The position numbers and the translations under genes were made by a program. Shown piece after piece: positions 195-10,733 of a stretch of 11,441 nt of DNA. This stretch comes from a virus. Location of the stretch: the UHGV virus genome UHGV-0368337; one strand, given 5' to 3'. The notes below the pieces were generated by a model. That model saw only the letters and a program-made list of their open reading frames with translations. It had not been told where the DNA came from and made no database searches. The stretch's first letter is position 1; every line of letters starts with the position of its first letter.

Positions 195-416
195 TCACAA
201 CGACGCTGCTTTTACGGGTAAGCCATCGCGCCCGATGAAAACTTTAATCATGCAGTCGGTAATGCATGTTTTTGTTGTGAAGTTACGAATATAGAGTTTT
301 CTCTTTTCAATATTGTTTGCTGAAGCGATATATGTCCGACCTTCATGAAGAACATAATCGCCAGGCGTCACGCACTGACGTGGTATTTCATCAGTTCCGA
401 AGTGATGAGCAATCAT
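195..416 (-). CDS. small protein (73 aa), possibly a Kil-like host-killing protein
   Basis: ORF track 195..434; preferred start is the ATG at 416 ([10 protein letters not shown]...) with GGAGA 5 nt upstream. It lies at the distal end of the leftward operon, where kil genes sit in lambda/Rac-type prophages. Identity rests on position and size only. Confidence 0.5.
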
Positions 417-872
417 AATTATCTCCATTTTCACAAATGAACTTTGTTGATGCGGTGCCTGGTGCCTCCAGGTGGCGTTAACCAGTTAACAATTAACGCC
501 GGGTCAGGGGACGATGACTTTCCGTGACATCCTGTCGGTTTAACTGTTCCGCGTGCGCTGAGCCGCATTCACCGCATCACAAAATTCACTTTAAAAAGGG
601 CGGACATCAGCAATCGGCAAACCGATATCCGCCAAGGGTTACACACAGCAATGTTGTTATTCACAACCGGAAGCGCACGGTCGAAGAAATCTAACGACAA
701 TCCTTCTATGGGAAAGAGTCTTCGCCTCGCGCTTTCGTGTAGTACCCTGGCTTTCAGGGTAATGTCTGTTCAGTAAACTGAGAGTGCAGGAACTCCCCCG
801 TGTCCGGCGCACGATCTCCACCTCACCCGTGGAGAACTCCTCAACTACAAACCCCGTAAGGAGAGTGAATTT

Positions 873-1082
873 ATGACACAAGAAGAAAAAGTGATGTTTC
901 TGATGCGGCTGGCTGTCGATACTTACAACACACAATTTACGGAGAAAGATATACCTCAAAAGGCAGTTCCTGCCGCGGTAGATAAGGGCGGTGCTATTGC
1001 CGTATTTTACGATGCATTTGAATCATTTTTTAATGAAAAACTCGACGCTGTTAGCGACTTCGGAACATCGAGTAATAAATAA
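873..1082 (+). CDS. hypothetical small protein (69 aa)
   Basis: ATG at 873 preceded by a strong Shine-Dalgarno AAGGAGAG; clean ORF to a TAA stop. No recognisable motif. Its 3-prime end overlaps the convergent ORF 1051..1410 by 32 nt. Confidence 0.5.
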   Translation: MTQEEKVMFLMRLAVDTYNTQFTEKDIPQKAVPAAVDKGGAIAVFYDAFESFFNEKLDAVSDFGTSSNK

Positions 1083-1410
1083 CGTTCATTACGGTTCTTA
1101 AACAACAATCAGTGGGCTTGATGTTGTTCTTTTCAAGCTCACTTGCCATCACTTCCATTATTCTTGCACTTACACGAATTATTTGGTGGCTGTAAGCGAC
1201 GCAACTGTCGCTGATATTGCTGTTTATTTCTATTACTTCATTTTCACTGGCGGCGCTAAATTTGGATATGCCGTTTCCATTGTCCTGTTTCAGTGCTGTT
1301 TCCGCTATCCGGATGCGTTCCTGCGTTGCGGAATTTGGGCTAAGTCGATAAACCTGTCTGGCATCTTCCAGAAGCAGGGCGATAATGTGCTTCAGTTCTG
1401 TTTCATTCAT
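1051..1410 (-). CDS. hypothetical protein (119 aa)
   Basis: ORF track 1051..1431; preferred start ATG at 1410 (MNETELKH...) with GGAG about 8 nt upstream. Lies in the leftward operon downstream of N. No recognisable motif. Confidence 0.5.
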   Translation of the reverse strand: MNETELKHIIALLLEDARQVYRLSPNSATQERIRIAETALKQDNGNGISKFSAASENEVIEINSNISDSCVAYSHQIIRVSARIMEVMASELEKNNIKPTDCCLRTVMNVIYYSMFRSR

Positions 1411-1837: not shown

Positions 1838-2143
1838 TCAATCGTAATAAGCCGGAATTGATTTTCCGCGTTGTTTCTGGCGGCCTGAGCAAGTCACACC
1901 CATTTCACTGCGTGGTTTGCGGTAGTAAATACGGTTCTGTTTACTCTCGACTTCTTCTGCCTTCTTGCAGCGAAGGCTTCCGAGTGATACTGCTTTGTCT
2001 GCTCCGACGCAACCAGAGATCTTTAGCGCAATCTTCCGTGTCAGTCTTTCACTACTGCGCCGCTCTGCAATAAGTTCTTCCCTGCGAGCTTTATAGCGGC
2101 TTTTTGCCGTACCTTTGGATTCTTTCCAGATTATGGTTACCAT
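1838..2143 (-). CDS. N: transcription antitermination protein N (phage-21-type arginine-rich motif)
   Basis: ORF track 1838..2242; preferred start ATG at 2143 with AAAGGAGA upstream. N-terminus MVTIIWKESKGTAKSRYKARREELIAERR matches the phage 21 N arginine-rich boxB-binding motif as I recall it. boxA/boxB nut sites lie in its leader and again after cro. Confidence 0.75.
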   Translation of the reverse strand: MVTIIWKESKGTAKSRYKARREELIAERRSSERLTRKIALKISGCVGADKAVSLGSLRCKKAEEVESKQNRIYYRKPRSEMGVTCSGRQKQRGKSIPAYYD

Positions 2144-2253
2144 GATGGTCTCCTTTAAGTGGCTTTGGTGTATGACGCGTCGAGGTGTTTTTCTTCTCGA
2201 TCGCGGCCTTGCAACTGAAATTCGCGTCATCCCCAAAACCACTTAGATTTTGG

Positions 2254-2294
2254 TCTCAACGGTTAGGTTGAGAGTCCATCAATGTTAAAGAGCC
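2254..2294 (-). promoter_or_regulatory. nutL: boxA (GCTCTTTAACATT) plus boxB hairpin
   Basis: On the minus strand: GGCTCTTTAACATT, 7 nt, then hairpin TCTCAAC-CTAACC-GTTGAGA. The same boxA 13-mer and a CTAACA-loop hairpin recur at 3902..3942 after cro. Confidence 0.6.
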
Positions 2295-2851: not shown

Positions 2852-3559
2852 TTACCAGCTATGTGATGACCAGAACACTCGCCCTATGATTCTTACGTTT
2901 TTGTAGAATTCTTCTCTGTTCATTACTTCATCAGGATACTCTTCGCGGTTTATCGATCTGATAATTACCGATGTTGGCGTGGCTATGAGCGTTTTTACCC
3001 TTAACAAATCAGCTTGGCAAATTGCATATGTTTTACCATCCCTGATGCTCGTATCTCGCGTGTTTACCCCCACCACATCACCATCATGGAGTGTTGGCTC
3101 CATGCTTTGCCCAACAACCCTGACCAACTTTGCCGCTTTTTCTGGAACTCCCATTTTTTTCAGGTAATAGCGCCTAAAAACTAGAGAGAATTCTGCGGAC
3201 TCCTCCAATGCACAACTTCCTCCGCCAGCTGAAAGTGAAATATTTAGAAGGGGGAGCGCAACAAATTCTTCATTATCATTTTGATGATCATCCCAGGCGA
3301 TAGCTTTTAAAGATGATTCCCGAGCATTAGATGGCTCTTCTGCGCTCTGTGGTCTCATTGACCCTATACCAGAGCTTAGCCATTCAGGGCGAACTCTTAA
3401 CGCGTTGGCTAATTCGACCATTTTACGTGATCCGGTTGTTTTACCAGATGACATCTTTTGTATGGCTGGTTGTGATACCCCCACCATGTCTGCAAGTTGT
3501 GCTTGTGACAACCCGGCTGAACTCATGGCGGCATTTAGTCTTTCTGCGAATGTTTTCAT
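2852..3559 (-). CDS. cI: CI-type prophage repressor (N-terminal HTH, C-terminal S24/LexA-like autopeptidase)
   Basis: 235 aa. N-terminal HTH (LSQAQLADMVGVSQPAIQKM), Ala-Gly cleavage region (LSAGGG), catalytic serine motif GQSMEP and downstream lysine (RVK). Divergent from the cro-like gene with operators between them. Confidence 0.9.
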   Translation of the reverse strand: MKTFAERLNAAMSSAGLSQAQLADMVGVSQPAIQKMSSGKTTGSRKMVELANALRVRPEWLSSGIGSMRPQSAEEPSNARESSLKAIAWDDHQNDNEEFVALPLLNISLSAGGGSCALEESAEFSLVFRRYYLKKMGVPEKAAKLVRVVGQSMEPTLHDGDVVGVNTRDTSIRDGKTYAICQADLLRVKTLIATPTSVIIRSINREEYPDEVMNREEFYKNVRIIGRVFWSSHSW

Positions 3560-8438: not shown

Positions 8439-8499
8439 TGCTGCGGGTGCTTGAGGCTGTCTGCCTCGGGCATGCCACCGTAAGGCAGACAGAGAAAAG

Positions 8500-8565
8500 C
8501 CCCAGTTAACATTACGCGTCCTGCAAGACGCCTAACATTAATCTGAGGCCAATTTCATGCTAGAC
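8500..8565 (-). ncRNA. candidate Sok-like antisense RNA (hypothetical)
   Basis: Minus-strand promoter-like TTGCCT (rc of 8595..8600), 17 nt, TAACCT (rc of 8572..8577). The transcript would be antisense to the SD and start of the upstream in-frame ORF at 8557 and contain hairpin 8515..8530. No clean U-tract terminator. Confidence 0.25.
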
Positions 8566-8613
8566 ACATGTAGGTTAGCCTCTTACGCGCCGAAAGGCAA
8601 GGAGAAGCAGGCT

Positions 8614-8769
8614 ATGAAGCAGCAAAAGGCGATGTTAGTCGCCCTGATCGTCATCTGTATTACCGTCATTGTGACGGCACTGGTAACGAGGAAAGACCTC
8701 TGCGAGGTACGAATCCGAACCGGCCAGACGGAGGTCACTGTCTTCACAGCTTACGAACCTGAGGAGTAA
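8614..8769 (+). CDS. hok: Hok/Gef-family type I toxin (51 aa membrane peptide)
   Basis: MKQQKAMLVALIVICITVIVTALVTRKDLCEVRIRTGQTEVTVFTAYEPEE shows the Hok/Gef signature (TM helix, TRK-LCE-R-G-EVA-F-AYE). AAGGCAAGGAGAAG RBS. ORF track 8557..8769 includes an in-frame upstream start with its own GAGG. Confidence 0.85.
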   Translation: MKQQKAMLVALIVICITVIVTALVTRKDLCEVRIRTGQTEVTVFTAYEPEE

Positions 8770-10458: not shown

Positions 10459-10488
10459 TTGACAACGTCGCGTGTTCGGGGCTATATT
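10459..10488 (+). promoter_or_regulatory. near-consensus sigma-70 promoter (TTGACA, 18 nt, TATATT)
   Basis: TTGACA at 10459..10464 and TATATT at 10483..10488. Divergent from the higB-like start; faces the structured region and the ORF6N-like gene. Confidence 0.5.
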
Positions 10489-10494
10489 CCTCAC

Positions 10495-10569
10495 GCGCCA
10501 GCAAAACCTGGCGTCGGGATTAGCACCCCGGATATCGAAACGGTGCATAACCGCGCTGGCGGTTTTTTT
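10495..10569 (+). ncRNA. candidate small RNA or transcriptional attenuator (about 75 nt)
   Basis: Starts about 7 nt after the promoter -10. Hairpins CGCCAG-CAAAAC-CTGGCG and GCACC...GGTGC, then terminator-like CCGC-GCTG-GCGG plus T7 (10551..10569). About 165 nt of further structured sequence precedes the next gene. Confidence 0.3.
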
Positions 10570-10733
10570 ATGCGCTAAGCACAGTCACATTCGCGATTTA
10601 TGGCGGGCTGTGTGGGGGAGCCGAAAGGCTCGCCGGATGTTTCGACCGGTAGTGCTAACCCCGCACAGTTCGCCACCACGATGATTAGCACCTGACGGTG
10701 GCGAGGTAAAAATTATCGAAACGCGAGGTCATT

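What the first reader, a model, noticed from the sequence alone, without database searches (positions are those of the whole stretch)
440..872. About 430 bp GC-rich, hairpin-dense region with no credible ORF inside the leftward operon
Phage early operons are usually tightly packed, yet between the Kil-sized gene and the small gene at 873 there is a long stretch with no RBS-supported ORF on either strand (the minus-strand 100-aa ORF has odd composition and no RBS). It carries several inverted repeats, e.g. CCTGG...CCAGG, GGCGTTAA...TTAACGCC (about 471..500), GGCGGA...TCCGCC (about 598..638) and TCTCCAC...GTGGAGA (about 808..829). It could be a structured leader for the 873 gene, a processed regulatory RNA from the PL transcript, or a decayed gene.
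Basis: seen in the sequence. Interest (0 to 1): 0.5.

Follow-up and report, generated by a model that had tools for sequence, protein, structure and literature searches.

The report
KilS/DicF-type prophage small RNA locus
The "empty" 430 bp upstream of the phage kil gene is a non-coding RNA module already known from E. coli K-12 prophages: a KilS/DicF-type small regulatory RNA with its terminator, flanked by RNase III-type helices and followed by the structured leader of the cell-division inhibitor gene, so it is an uncharacterised variant of a known thing.

Summary
Window 440-872 has no conserved ORF, and its minus strand folds better than shuffles (z about -3.4 to -3.8). It is not orphan sequence. 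It aligns with the kilS-kilR 5'UTR of K-12 prophage Rac and with the ydfC-dicF-dicB spacer of prophage Qin.

Read on the minus strand (PL direction), it contains:
- A conserved upstream block (about 745-860).
- A 17-bp helix (719-737 / 667-687), homologous to the helix where the RNase III-dependent 5' end of the 190-nt DicF precursor appears to map.
- A KilS-type sRNA (about 684-593) with seed AAUAACAACAUUGCUGUGUGUA, a terminator hairpin (633-599) and a U5 run.
- A 176-nt kil leader (592-417), closed by a 22-bp helix and weakly similar to STnc100.

The same leader precedes dicB, kil or a regulator gene in 145 loci. At least four sRNA seed types occupy the slot in front of it.

The 873 gene lies on the opposite strand and occurs only in the four window-type loci, so the region is not its leader.

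This window's variant is about 74% identical to K-12 KilS. It is found in about 72 of 5426 complete E. coli genomes and is unannotated in the rows inspected.

One possibly new point: the KilS seed copies the RprA 3' seed, and both RNAs share yncL as a partner.

The parts
195..416 (-). kil (KilR-type cell-division inhibitor), the gene served by the leader
   Evidence: phrog_294 'Kil protein for bacterial septation inhibition', E=8.2e-36. Annotated as kil in the 99.8% identical NZ_AP043606.
417..592 (-). Structured 5' leader of kil (dicB/kil-type leader, weakly STnc100-like). Conserved 5' and 3' blocks surround a hypervariable core at about 501-545. The SD GGAG lies at 423-426.
   Evidence: The 183-nt stretch 410-592(-) has MFE -63.2 kcal/mol, z=-3.79. 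The blocks are nearly identical in Rac, Qin and 71 distinct leaders that precede dicB, kil or a phrog_995 gene. Rfam STnc100 scores 27.8 bits, E=4.9e-4, below the gathering score of 47.
570..592 (-). 5' strand of the 22-bp leader-closing helix (AAAGUGAAUUUUGUGAUGCGGUG). Inferred RNase III site that would separate the sRNA from kil mRNA on read-through transcripts.
   Evidence: Pairs with 435-457 in the MFE and centroid structures and appears as inverted repeat I1. In Qin, RNase III gives a 72-nt DicF, 19 nt beyond the 53-nt form (PMC5069750). That position falls in this strand; the mapping is my inference from lengths.
435..457 (-). 3' strand of the leader-closing helix (CACCGCAUCAACAAAGUUCAUUU). 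It ends 8 nt before the kil SD.
   Evidence: Variants in other loci mostly sit at the bulged A or convert G-U to A-U or A-U to G-U; two variants break a pair (L039 A-C, L121 C-A; alignment).
458..500 (-). Two conserved leader hairpins: GGCGUUAA...UUAACGCC (474-500) and CCUGG-AGGCA-CCAGG (458-472).
   Evidence: Almost invariant in the 71 leaders. Against the STnc100 consensus, CCGGG/CCCGG becomes CCUGG/CCAGG, a change on both sides.
593..684 (-). KilS-type small RNA, homologue of the 98-nt K-12 KilS. The 5' end is placed by alignment. A shorter form starting near 653 is predicted by analogy with the K-12 RNase E site.
   Evidence: Aligned with kilS b4833: 70 of 95 ungapped positions identical. 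MFE -30.8 kcal/mol, z=-3.38. Rfam DicF 598-647(-) scores 29.2 bits, E=2.9e-4; K-12 KilS itself scores 39.1; the gathering score is 48. K-12 TSS at 1418502 and RNase E site at 1418471 (PMC8175672 supplementary file 6).
635..662 (-). Single-stranded seed region AAUAACAACAUUGCUGUGUGUAACCCUU. Positions 640-652 (AUUGCUGUGUGUA) are identical to RprA nt 60-72.
   Evidence: Unpaired in the centroid structure. It is the best-conserved part of 14 KilS variants, while the hairpin top varies. Longest common string with RprA is 13 nt for the window and 16 nt for K-12 KilS.
593..633 (-). Rho-independent terminator of the sRNA: a 13-bp hairpin at 599-633 followed by U5 at 593-597.
   Evidence: I2. The base and tail ..CCGCCCUUUUU AAAG are shared with DicF and K-12 KilS. 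The promoter/terminator scanner missed it because its loop limit is 8 nt.
667..737 (-). Helix upstream of the sRNA: 5' strand about 719-737 (CGAAAGCGCGAGGCGAAGA), 3' strand about 667-687 (UCUUCGACCGUGCGCUUCCGG), with a small hairpin between them. Inferred RNase III site that sets the precursor 5' end.
   Evidence: Predicted independently in the window, Qin and Rac. In 30 sequences, 17 pairs are 97.6% paired, against 27-41% when the partner is slid. Three pairs change on both sides; covariation is 0.184 against 0.105 in shuffles, with 0 of 500 shuffles reaching it. The 190-nt DicF 5' end is RNase III-dependent (PMC10448788), and by length it maps to this 3' strand.
743..860 (-). Conserved non-coding upstream block shared with the Qin ydfC-dicF spacer. 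It includes hairpins at 743-761 (UACCCUG-AAAGC-CAGGGUA) and 815-835 (UCUCCAC-GGGUGAG-GUGGAGA). Its role is unknown; it is part of the precursor transcript.
   Evidence: Alignments (28 distinct sequences). One variant, CUCUGA/UCAGAG against CCCUGA/UCAGGG, keeps the first hairpin. No covariation is available for the second. 685-872 alone has z=-0.3.
873..1082 (+). 69-aa gene on the opposite strand (phrog_2605), transcribed away from the region. A moron-like insert, not part of the module.
   Evidence: phrog_2605, E=9e-45. Present only in the 4 window-type loci of 145. Its 3' end overlaps the convergent gene at 1051-1410(-).
1838..2293 (-). Context: N-like antiterminator gene (1838-2143) and nutL (boxA GCTCTTTAAC 2284-2293; boxB hairpin 2254-2273). 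These provide the read-through mechanism for the leftward transcript.
   Evidence: phrog_271 'anti-termination protein N-like', E=7.6e-35. The sequence was read. The boxA/boxB assignment is by comparison with consensus sequences recalled from memory.

Best explanation
The region is the non-coding RNA module that sits in front of the cell-division inhibitor gene in many lambdoid prophages. It is known in K-12 as kilS-kilR (Rac) and dicF-dicB (Qin).

Proposed mechanism, read on the minus strand in the direction of PL transcription:

1. Leftward transcripts cross a conserved upstream block and then a roughly 17-bp helix (719-737 / 667-687).
2. They then transcribe a KilS-type sRNA (about 684-593). 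It has a single-stranded seed, AAUAACAACAUUGCUGUGUGUA, followed by a strong terminator hairpin and U5.
3. Without antitermination, transcription stops there. A small Hfq-type sRNA is released and the toxic kil gene stays silent.
4. With the phage N protein loaded at nutL, RNA polymerase reads through into the 176-nt kil leader. Its ends form a 22-bp helix (570-592 / 435-457).
5. RNase III would cut both helices, as reported for the DicF precursor. This would free the sRNA and leave kil mRNA with a short 5'UTR. RNase E would trim the sRNA near 653, as in K-12 KilS, exposing the seed at the 5' end.
6. The sRNA then base-pairs in trans with host mRNAs. The only documented KilS partner is yncL, and the seed is the same as the 3' seed of the host sRNA RprA.

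Shown here: homology, conserved helices, conserved seed and terminator, absence of coding signal, and the presence of N and nutL.

Inferred: expression, the cleavage positions, Hfq binding and the targets in this phage.
For: Homology:
- The three-way alignment with Rac kilS-kilR and Qin ydfC-dicF-dicB has long identical blocks.
- kilS and dicF are annotated ncRNAs at the corresponding positions.
- megablast finds window 436-603 in 4369 of 5426 complete E. coli genomes.

Rfam:
- DicF model hit at 598-647(-), E=2.9e-4.
- STnc100 model hit at 402-596(-), E=4.9e-4.
- K-12 KilS and the K-12 leaders give the same sub-threshold hits.

Structure:
- z-scores from -3.4 to -3.8.
- The upstream helix is conserved, with compensatory changes.

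Modularity:
- In 145 loci, the same leader follows DicF-, KilS-, C- or D-type seeds and precedes dicB, kil or a regulator gene.

Not coding.

Experimental basis in the K-12 homologues:
- KilS was detected by northern blot and Hfq RIL-seq, with a TSS at 1418502, an RNase E site at 1418471 and yncL as partner (PMC8175672).
- DicF 5' ends depend on RNase III (190 nt) and RNase E (53 nt) (PMC10448788).
- The DicF 3' end arises by termination (53 nt) or RNase III cleavage (72 nt), and DicF binds Hfq (PMC5069750).
- kilR is kept silent by NusG-dependent termination and expressed by read-through (PMC5793797).

Antitermination in this window: N-like gene and a nutL-like boxA/boxB.
Against: - There are no expression data for this phage.
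- The element fails the gathering score of every Rfam family (DicF 29.2 of 48; STnc100 27.8 of 47).
- It is only about 74% identical to K-12 KilS, with a different 5' part and hairpin top.
- The K-12 KilS promoter appears to be an extended -10 (TGtTAAATT; my reading). Here it is CGtTAGATT, and the scanner finds no sigma-70 site. An own promoter is therefore doubtful, and the sRNA may depend wholly on processing.
- In the window the upstream helix has a G-U pair and a mismatch where the consensus pairs.
- The compensatory changes come mostly from one lineage (Rac type).
- The seed-yncL duplex is not better than shuffled seeds in a crude duplex calculation.
- The U-tail has only five U.
Confidence: 0.8

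Rival explanations
1. The region acts only in cis. It would be an attenuator (intrinsic terminator plus structured leader) whose sole job is to keep kil silent until N-mediated read-through. The short terminated RNA would then be a by-product with no trans targets.
For: The terminator lies directly in front of a toxic gene. kilR in Rac is controlled by termination and read-through (PMC5793797). The leader and terminator are far more conserved than the seed slot, which is swapped among loci. K-12 KilS has very few RIL-seq interactions (PMC8175672).
Against: Within the KilS type, the seed is the best-conserved segment while the hairpin top varies. The sister RNA DicF has proven trans targets (PMC5069750). 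KilS is Hfq-associated with a specific partner, yncL, which is also an RprA partner. A 13-20-nt identity with the RprA seed is not expected for a by-product. The two readings are not mutually exclusive.
Confidence: 0.25
2. The region is the promoter and long structured 5' leader of the + strand 69-aa gene at 873.
For: The region lies directly upstream of that gene on the + strand. The gene has a good SD (AAGGAG). The + strand also folds well (z=-3.97), as any strand complementary to a structured RNA will.
Against: The gene occurs in only 4 of 145 loci that carry the region. Homology to Qin begins right at the gene's SD, so the gene looks like an insert. No sigma-70-like promoter was found on the + strand. 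All Rfam similarity and all homologous annotated RNAs are on the minus strand. A short promoter segment near 780-872 cannot be excluded.
Confidence: 0.05
3. The region is a decayed gene or encodes a small protein.
For: ORFs of 30-100 aa exist. One of them hits phrog_24763.
Against: Each ORF is intact only in the 1-4 closest relatives among 50-117 homologues. phrog_24763 is DicB with a wrongly extended N-terminus that runs across the leader. The variable core has indels of many lengths. There are no Pfam hits.
Confidence: 0.03
4. The conservation reflects a DNA-level role. The blocks would be junction sequences that promote homologous recombination between modules of mosaic lambdoid genomes, not an RNA function.
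For: Nearly identical blocks join different sRNA seeds, different upstream modules and three different downstream genes. This pattern is typical of mosaic boundaries.
Against: It does not explain the base-paired organisation, the compensatory changes, the terminator or the documented RNase III and RNase E processing of the homologues. It may add to the RNA role but not replace it.
Confidence: 0.1

Closest known systems
KilS sRNA and the kilR 5'UTR of E. coli K-12 prophage Rac (b4833; Bar et al. 2021, PMC8175672)
   Same: Same position immediately upstream of a KilR-type gene. Same seed core (CAUUGCUGUGUGUA). Same terminator base and U-tail. Same downstream leader (more than 90% identical blocks). 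Same type of helix at the sRNA 5' end.
   Different: About 74% identity overall. The 5' segment and hairpin top differ. The upstream block is of Qin type, not Rac type. The extended -10 motif that I read at the K-12 TSS is not conserved. A + strand 69-aa gene replaces sieB as neighbour.
DicF sRNA and the dicBF operon of prophage Qin (Rfam RF00039)
   Same: Homologous precursor. It shares the upstream block, the helix where the RNase III-dependent 190-nt 5' end appears to map, the terminator base, the leader-closing helix where the 72-nt RNase III 3' end appears to map, and the leader itself. It also sits in front of a cell-division inhibitor gene.
   Different: The seed is unrelated (DicF is UUUCUGGUGACGUUU, which targets ftsZ, xylR and pykA). 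About 135 nt present between the helix and the seed in Qin are absent here. The Rfam score is below the gathering threshold (29.2 of 48). The downstream gene is kil, not dicB.
STnc100 (Rfam RF02076), and through it PasD, prophage sRNAs
   Same: The kil leader matches the whole 206-nt model end to end, with the closing helix and the CCNGG-AGGCA-CCNGG hairpin. Changes on both sides occur relative to the consensus.
   Different: The score is 27.8 against a gathering score of 47. PasD, which the preprint relates to STnc100, is described as lying next to Q/late genes, and STnc100 next to Fels-1 prophage genes (bioRxiv 10.64898/2026.05.13.724894), not in the early-left operon. The relationship is distant at best.
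RprA, core-genome Hfq-dependent sRNA (Rfam RF00034)
   Same: 13 nt (window), 16 nt (K-12 KilS) or 20 nt (L138 variant, by eye) are identical to RprA nt 60 onward. This is the single-stranded stretch just before the terminator. yncL is a partner of both RprA and KilS.
   Different: There is no similarity outside this stretch (Rfam 22.4 bits, E=6.3). RprA's rpoS-activating 5' seed is absent. The genomic context and regulation differ.
Terminators in the lambda PL operon that are bypassed by N, and RNase III processing of lambdoid early leaders
   Same: An intrinsic terminator lies inside the N-antiterminated leftward operon. Long helices suited to RNase III flank functional units.
   Different: In lambda itself no sRNA is described at this position, and lambda kil is unrelated to KilR. 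This comparison rests on textbook knowledge, not on a test made here.

Membership tests
KilS (K-12 Rac sRNA) | Lies in the 5'UTR immediately upstream of a KilR-type gene, on the same strand | tested here: met
   The sRNA homologue is at 593-684(-) and kil at 195-416(-).
KilS (K-12 Rac sRNA) | Sequence homology to the 98-nt K-12 KilS, including the seed | tested here: met
   70 of 95 ungapped positions are identical. The seed is AAUAACAACAUUGCUGUGUGUA here and AAUAACGACAUUGCUGUGUGUA in K-12.
KilS (K-12 Rac sRNA) | Rho-independent terminator forming the 3' end | tested here: met
   A 13-bp hairpin at 599-633 plus U5 at 593-597. This is sequence evidence only.
KilS (K-12 Rac sRNA) | Own transcription start (K-12 TSS at 1418502) | tested here: inconclusive
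   The motif I read as the K-12 promoter, TGtTAAATT, is CGtTAGATT here. The scanner finds no sigma-70 site.
KilS (K-12 Rac sRNA) | Expressed as a discrete RNA, Hfq-associated, pairs with yncL | not testable with these tools
   Needs a northern blot or RIL-seq. The predicted seed-yncL duplex uses the same site for the window, K-12 KilS and RprA, but is not better than shuffles.
DicF (Rfam RF00039) | Score at or above the Rfam gathering threshold (48 bits) | tested here: not met
   29.2 bits, E=2.9e-4. True DicF scores 76.7 and K-12 KilS 39.1.
DicF (Rfam RF00039) | 5' seed UUUCUGGUGACG that pairs with ftsZ mRNA | tested here: not met
   The seed here is the KilS type.
DicF (Rfam RF00039) | Precursor architecture: RNase III helix upstream, terminator, RNase III helix in the downstream leader | tested here: met
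   Homologous helices are predicted in the window, Qin and Rac. The cleavage itself was not tested.
STnc100 (Rfam RF02076) | Score at or above the Rfam gathering threshold (47 bits) | tested here: not met
   27.8 bits, E=4.9e-4, over the full model length.
RprA (Rfam RF00034) | Score at or above the gathering threshold (70 bits) and the three-hairpin architecture | tested here: not met
   22.4 bits, E=6.3. Only a 13-nt seed identity is shared.

The most novel reading that the evidence does not exclude
The slot in front of the division-inhibitor gene of lambdoid prophages may be a modular sRNA cassette. Fixed processing and termination elements (two RNase III-type helices, terminator, leader) would frame an exchangeable seed. 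At least four seed types occupy the slot in 145 loci, and two of them appear uncharacterised as far as I checked.

The KilS-type seed carried by this window is a copy of the 3' seed of the host sRNA RprA. The prophage RNA would therefore plug into, or compete within, part of the RprA regulon, with yncL as a shared partner. I did not find this KilS-DicF homology or the KilS-RprA seed identity in the papers I could search.
Probability: 0.4. Interest if true: 0.6.

Novelty: new member of a known kind. Interest (0 to 1): 0.35.

Why it matters
For annotation, this is one of the most widespread unannotated non-coding stretches in E. coli prophages. The leader is present in 4369 of 5426 complete genomes, and it attracts spurious ORF calls such as the over-extended DicB of phrog_24763.

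For biology, it couples a trans-acting sRNA to the controlled release of a toxic cell-division inhibitor. The window adds a rare KilS variant that combines Qin-type and Rac-type modules.

If the seed-swapping and RprA-mimicry reading is right, the locus would be a natural example of phages reprogramming a host sRNA regulon by exchanging a short seed (about 15-30 nt) inside a fixed processing scaffold. This can be tested directly with reporter fusions.

Tried and rejected
- Rfam at gathering thresholds finds nothing in 440-872. Only the permissive search shows the DicF and STnc100 similarity.
- The promoter/terminator scanner found no promoter for the sRNA or for the 873 gene. It missed the sRNA terminator because of its loop limit. 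Its one 'terminator' in the region (743-761, + strand) is the conserved hairpin read on the wrong strand.
- The protein-family hit of ORF 431-568(-) was followed up and is an annotation artefact.
- Target prediction with RNA duplex energies led nowhere. On yncL it is not better than shuffled seeds. On ftsQAZ nothing stands out, and the scan did not pick out DicF's known ftsZ target either, so the method is uninformative.
- A boxB-like reading of the hairpin at 743-761 (CCCUGAAAG...) was considered and dropped. The phage's own nutL boxB, as I assigned it, is of a different type, and the hairpin lies far from N.
- A small ORF after the SD-like AAGGAG/GAGGAG near 850 was rejected. Its length and stop differ between the window and Qin.
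- The 1994 J Bacteriol paper on dicF-like sequences in prophages could not be read. It may already describe the Rac homologue.
- Covariation in the leader-closing helix could not be tested fairly, because the loci were fished with its 5' strand as an exact pattern.

Full report
**Context**

The window is the early-left region of a lambdoid prophage. Reading leftward on the minus strand, it contains:
- A cI-like repressor gene (about 2852-3556).
- A nutL-like boxA (2284-2293) and boxB hairpin (2254-2273).
- An N-like antiterminator gene at 1838-2143 (phrog_271, E=7.6e-35).
- Several small genes of unknown function, including 1051-1410 (phrog_2982).
- The region under study.
- A KilR-type kil gene at 195-416 (phrog_294, E=8e-36).

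The gene at 873-1082 (phrog_2605) lies on the + strand.

**Checking the observation**

The stretch between kil and 873 carries no annotated gene in a 99.8% identical E. coli chromosome or in the two closest phages.

Six ORFs of 30-100 aa overlap it. I mapped each onto 50-117 nucleotide homologues. Each is intact only in the 1-4 nearest relatives.

The only protein-family hit was ORF 431-568(-) against phrog_24763. That profile consists of the true DicB N-terminus plus an in-frame upstream extension that annotators added across this very leader.

There are also two long-range helices and a further hairpin.

The minus strand folds better than shuffles:
- z=-3.4 for 593-684.
- z=-3.8 for 410-592.
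- z=-3.7 for 593-872.
- The distal part 685-872 alone does not (z=-0.3).

'GC-rich' holds only against the AT-rich flanks: 51.5% here, 37-42% in the flanks, 47% for the whole window.

**What it is**

megablast shows that 436-603 occurs in 4369 of 5426 complete E. coli genomes. 436-678 matches the region upstream of kilR in Rac-like prophages.

In K-12 the corresponding places carry annotated non-coding RNAs. These are kilS (b4833) upstream of kilR in Rac, and dicF upstream of dicB in Qin.

A three-way alignment shows the window to be a mosaic of both:
- The distal block (about 745-860) and the sequence around the first helix are of the Qin type.
- The sRNA core is of the KilS type.
- The leader is nearly identical in all three.

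A permissive Rfam search agrees. The DicF model hits 598-647(-) (29.2 bits, E=2.9e-4), and the STnc100 model hits 402-596(-) over its full length (27.8 bits, E=4.9e-4). Both are below the gathering scores. K-12 KilS and the K-12 leaders give the same sub-threshold hits.

**Anatomy on the minus strand**

(a) A helix of about 17 bp joins 719-737 to 667-687.
- It is predicted independently in the window, Qin and Rac.
- In 30 diverse sequences it is 97.6% paired, against 27-41% when the partner is slid.
- Three pairs change on both sides. Covariation exceeds all 500 shuffles, although most compensatory changes come from the Rac lineage.
- In Qin the 5' end of the 190-nt DicF precursor depends on RNase III (PMC10448788). 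Counting 190 nt back from the DicF 3' end lands in the 3' strand of this helix. That mapping is my inference from lengths.

(b) The sRNA lies at about 684-593.
- It has a seed that is single-stranded in the centroid structure, a 13-bp terminator hairpin (633-599) and U5 (597-593).
- Among 14 KilS variants the seed is the most conserved part, while the hairpin top is exchanged.
- K-12 KilS has a mapped TSS at its 5' end and an RNase E site directly before CAUUGCUG (PMC8175672 supplement). The equivalent position here is about 653.

(c) The kil leader spans 592-417.
- Its ends form a 22-bp helix with one bulged A (570-592 / 435-457).
- The helix encloses two conserved hairpins and a hypervariable core.
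- In Qin, RNase III cutting of read-through transcripts gives a 72-nt DicF, 19 nt beyond the terminated form (PMC5069750). That position lies in the 5' strand of this helix.

**A modular cassette**

I fished public genomes and viral contigs with a 21-nt leader motif. With the loci already in hand and the window, this gave 145 occurrences.

Upstream of the same leader and terminator base, the slot holds:
- DicF-type seeds: 85 loci.
- KilS-type seeds: 36 loci.
- Two further types that appear uncharacterised as far as I checked: C (7 loci) and D (3 loci).
- One unclassified seed (L112) and one truncated locus (L117).

Downstream lie dicB, kil or a phrog_995 regulator gene, in mixed combinations.

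The window's combination (Qin-type upstream block, KilS seed, kil) occurs in only four of these loci. Window 598-745 is found at 80% coverage or more in 72 of 5426 genomes, and none of the listed hits carries an annotation. The + strand 69-aa gene occurs only in those four loci. This rules out the idea that the region is that gene's leader.

**Mechanism**

The best-supported model is attenuation combined with sRNA production.
- Without N, leftward transcripts end at the sRNA terminator. An Hfq-type sRNA is made and kil stays silent.
- N-modified polymerase reads through.
- RNase III cleavage at the two helices, and RNase E cleavage before the seed, separate the sRNA from kil mRNA.

The steps are documented for the homologues: DicF processing, KilS expression and Hfq association, and kilR silencing by NusG-dependent termination. 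They are inferred for this phage.

The extended -10 (TGtTAAATT) that I read at the K-12 KilS TSS is not conserved here (CGtTAGATT). This variant may therefore depend on processing of the PL transcript.

**A side result**

The KilS seed is identical to RprA nt 60 onward over 13 nt in the window, 16 nt in K-12 KilS and 20 nt in variant L138 (by eye). yncL, the RIL-seq partner of KilS, is also a common RIL-seq and TRIC-seq partner of RprA.

Neither this identity nor the KilS-DicF homology is mentioned in the KilS paper, and I found no other accessible paper linking them. Crude duplex calculations place all three RNAs on the same yncL site but are not statistically distinctive.

**Verdict**

The finding is real and is explained. 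It is an unannotated, rare variant of a known prophage sRNA-plus-leader module. 'Leader of the 873 gene' and 'decayed gene' are not.

Interest is moderate to low for the element itself. It is somewhat higher for the cassette and seed-mimicry reading, which remains to be tested.

Noticed in passing
window 8445-8619 (+): Full-length sok antitoxin RNA (Rfam RF01794, 116.9 bits). This implies a hok/sok-type toxin-antitoxin locus in the prophage.
   Followed up: no
window 10482-10680 (+): c4-a1b1 targets, isrK and C4 antisense RNA, all above Rfam gathering scores. From memory this resembles a P1/P7-type c4/ant immunity module, here inside a lambdoid prophage.
   Followed up: no
window 2254-2293 (-) and 1838-2143 (-): nutL-like boxA (GCTCTTTAAC) and a boxB hairpin (UCUCAAC-CUAACC-GUUGAGA) lie upstream of an N-like gene (phrog_271). 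From memory, the N arginine-rich motif GTAKSRYKARREELIAERR resembles that of phage 21.
   Followed up: partly
window 873-1082 (+), overlapping 1051-1410 (-): A 69-aa gene of unknown function (phrog_2605) lies on the opposite strand inside the leftward operon. It is present only in the four window-type loci. Its 3' end overlaps the convergent phrog_2982 gene by 32 nt. It looks like a moron, and leftward transcription would run antisense to it.
   Followed up: partly
loci L025, L074, L083, L105, L128, L134, L135 (type C); L027, L049, L139 (type D); L112: Further sRNA seed variants, uncharacterised as far as I checked, occupy the same slot between the upstream helix and the shared terminator and leader. 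Examples are ...CAACAACCCAUGUUGAUUACCUUUUGG and ...CCAUGUGUAGUCUUUGG.
   Followed up: partly
K-12 kilS (L003 1906-2003 -) and rprA (L146 873-978 +); window 640-652: K-12 KilS shares a 16-nt exact string (AUUGCUGUGUGUAGUC) with the single-stranded stretch before the RprA terminator. The window shares 13 nt and variant L138 about 20 nt. yncL is reported as a partner of both RNAs.
   Followed up: partly
loci such as L008, L014, L084, L094 (downstream of the shared leader): In some prophages the same leader precedes neither kil nor dicB. Instead it precedes a gene matching phrog_995 'transcriptional regulator' (MLNVAIENQNGW...).
   Followed up: partly
L003 about 2075-2110 (-) (Rac) and L032-type loci, upstream of the first helix: Interleaved complementary segments (CACC..GCCCGG..GGUG..CCGGGC; ACCAC..GCCUG..GUGGU..CAGGC) could form an H-type pseudoknot. 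The two module types differ at positions in both putative stems. The window has a simple hairpin (743-761) at this place.
   Followed up: no
PHROGs family phrog_24763; phage mEp460 record LR597641 (L002 2297-2581): This PHROG family, and the 94-aa 'DicB' annotation in the phage record, are true DicB with an N-terminal extension read through the non-coding leader. This is an annotation artefact that can mislead ORF-based screens.
   Followed up: yes
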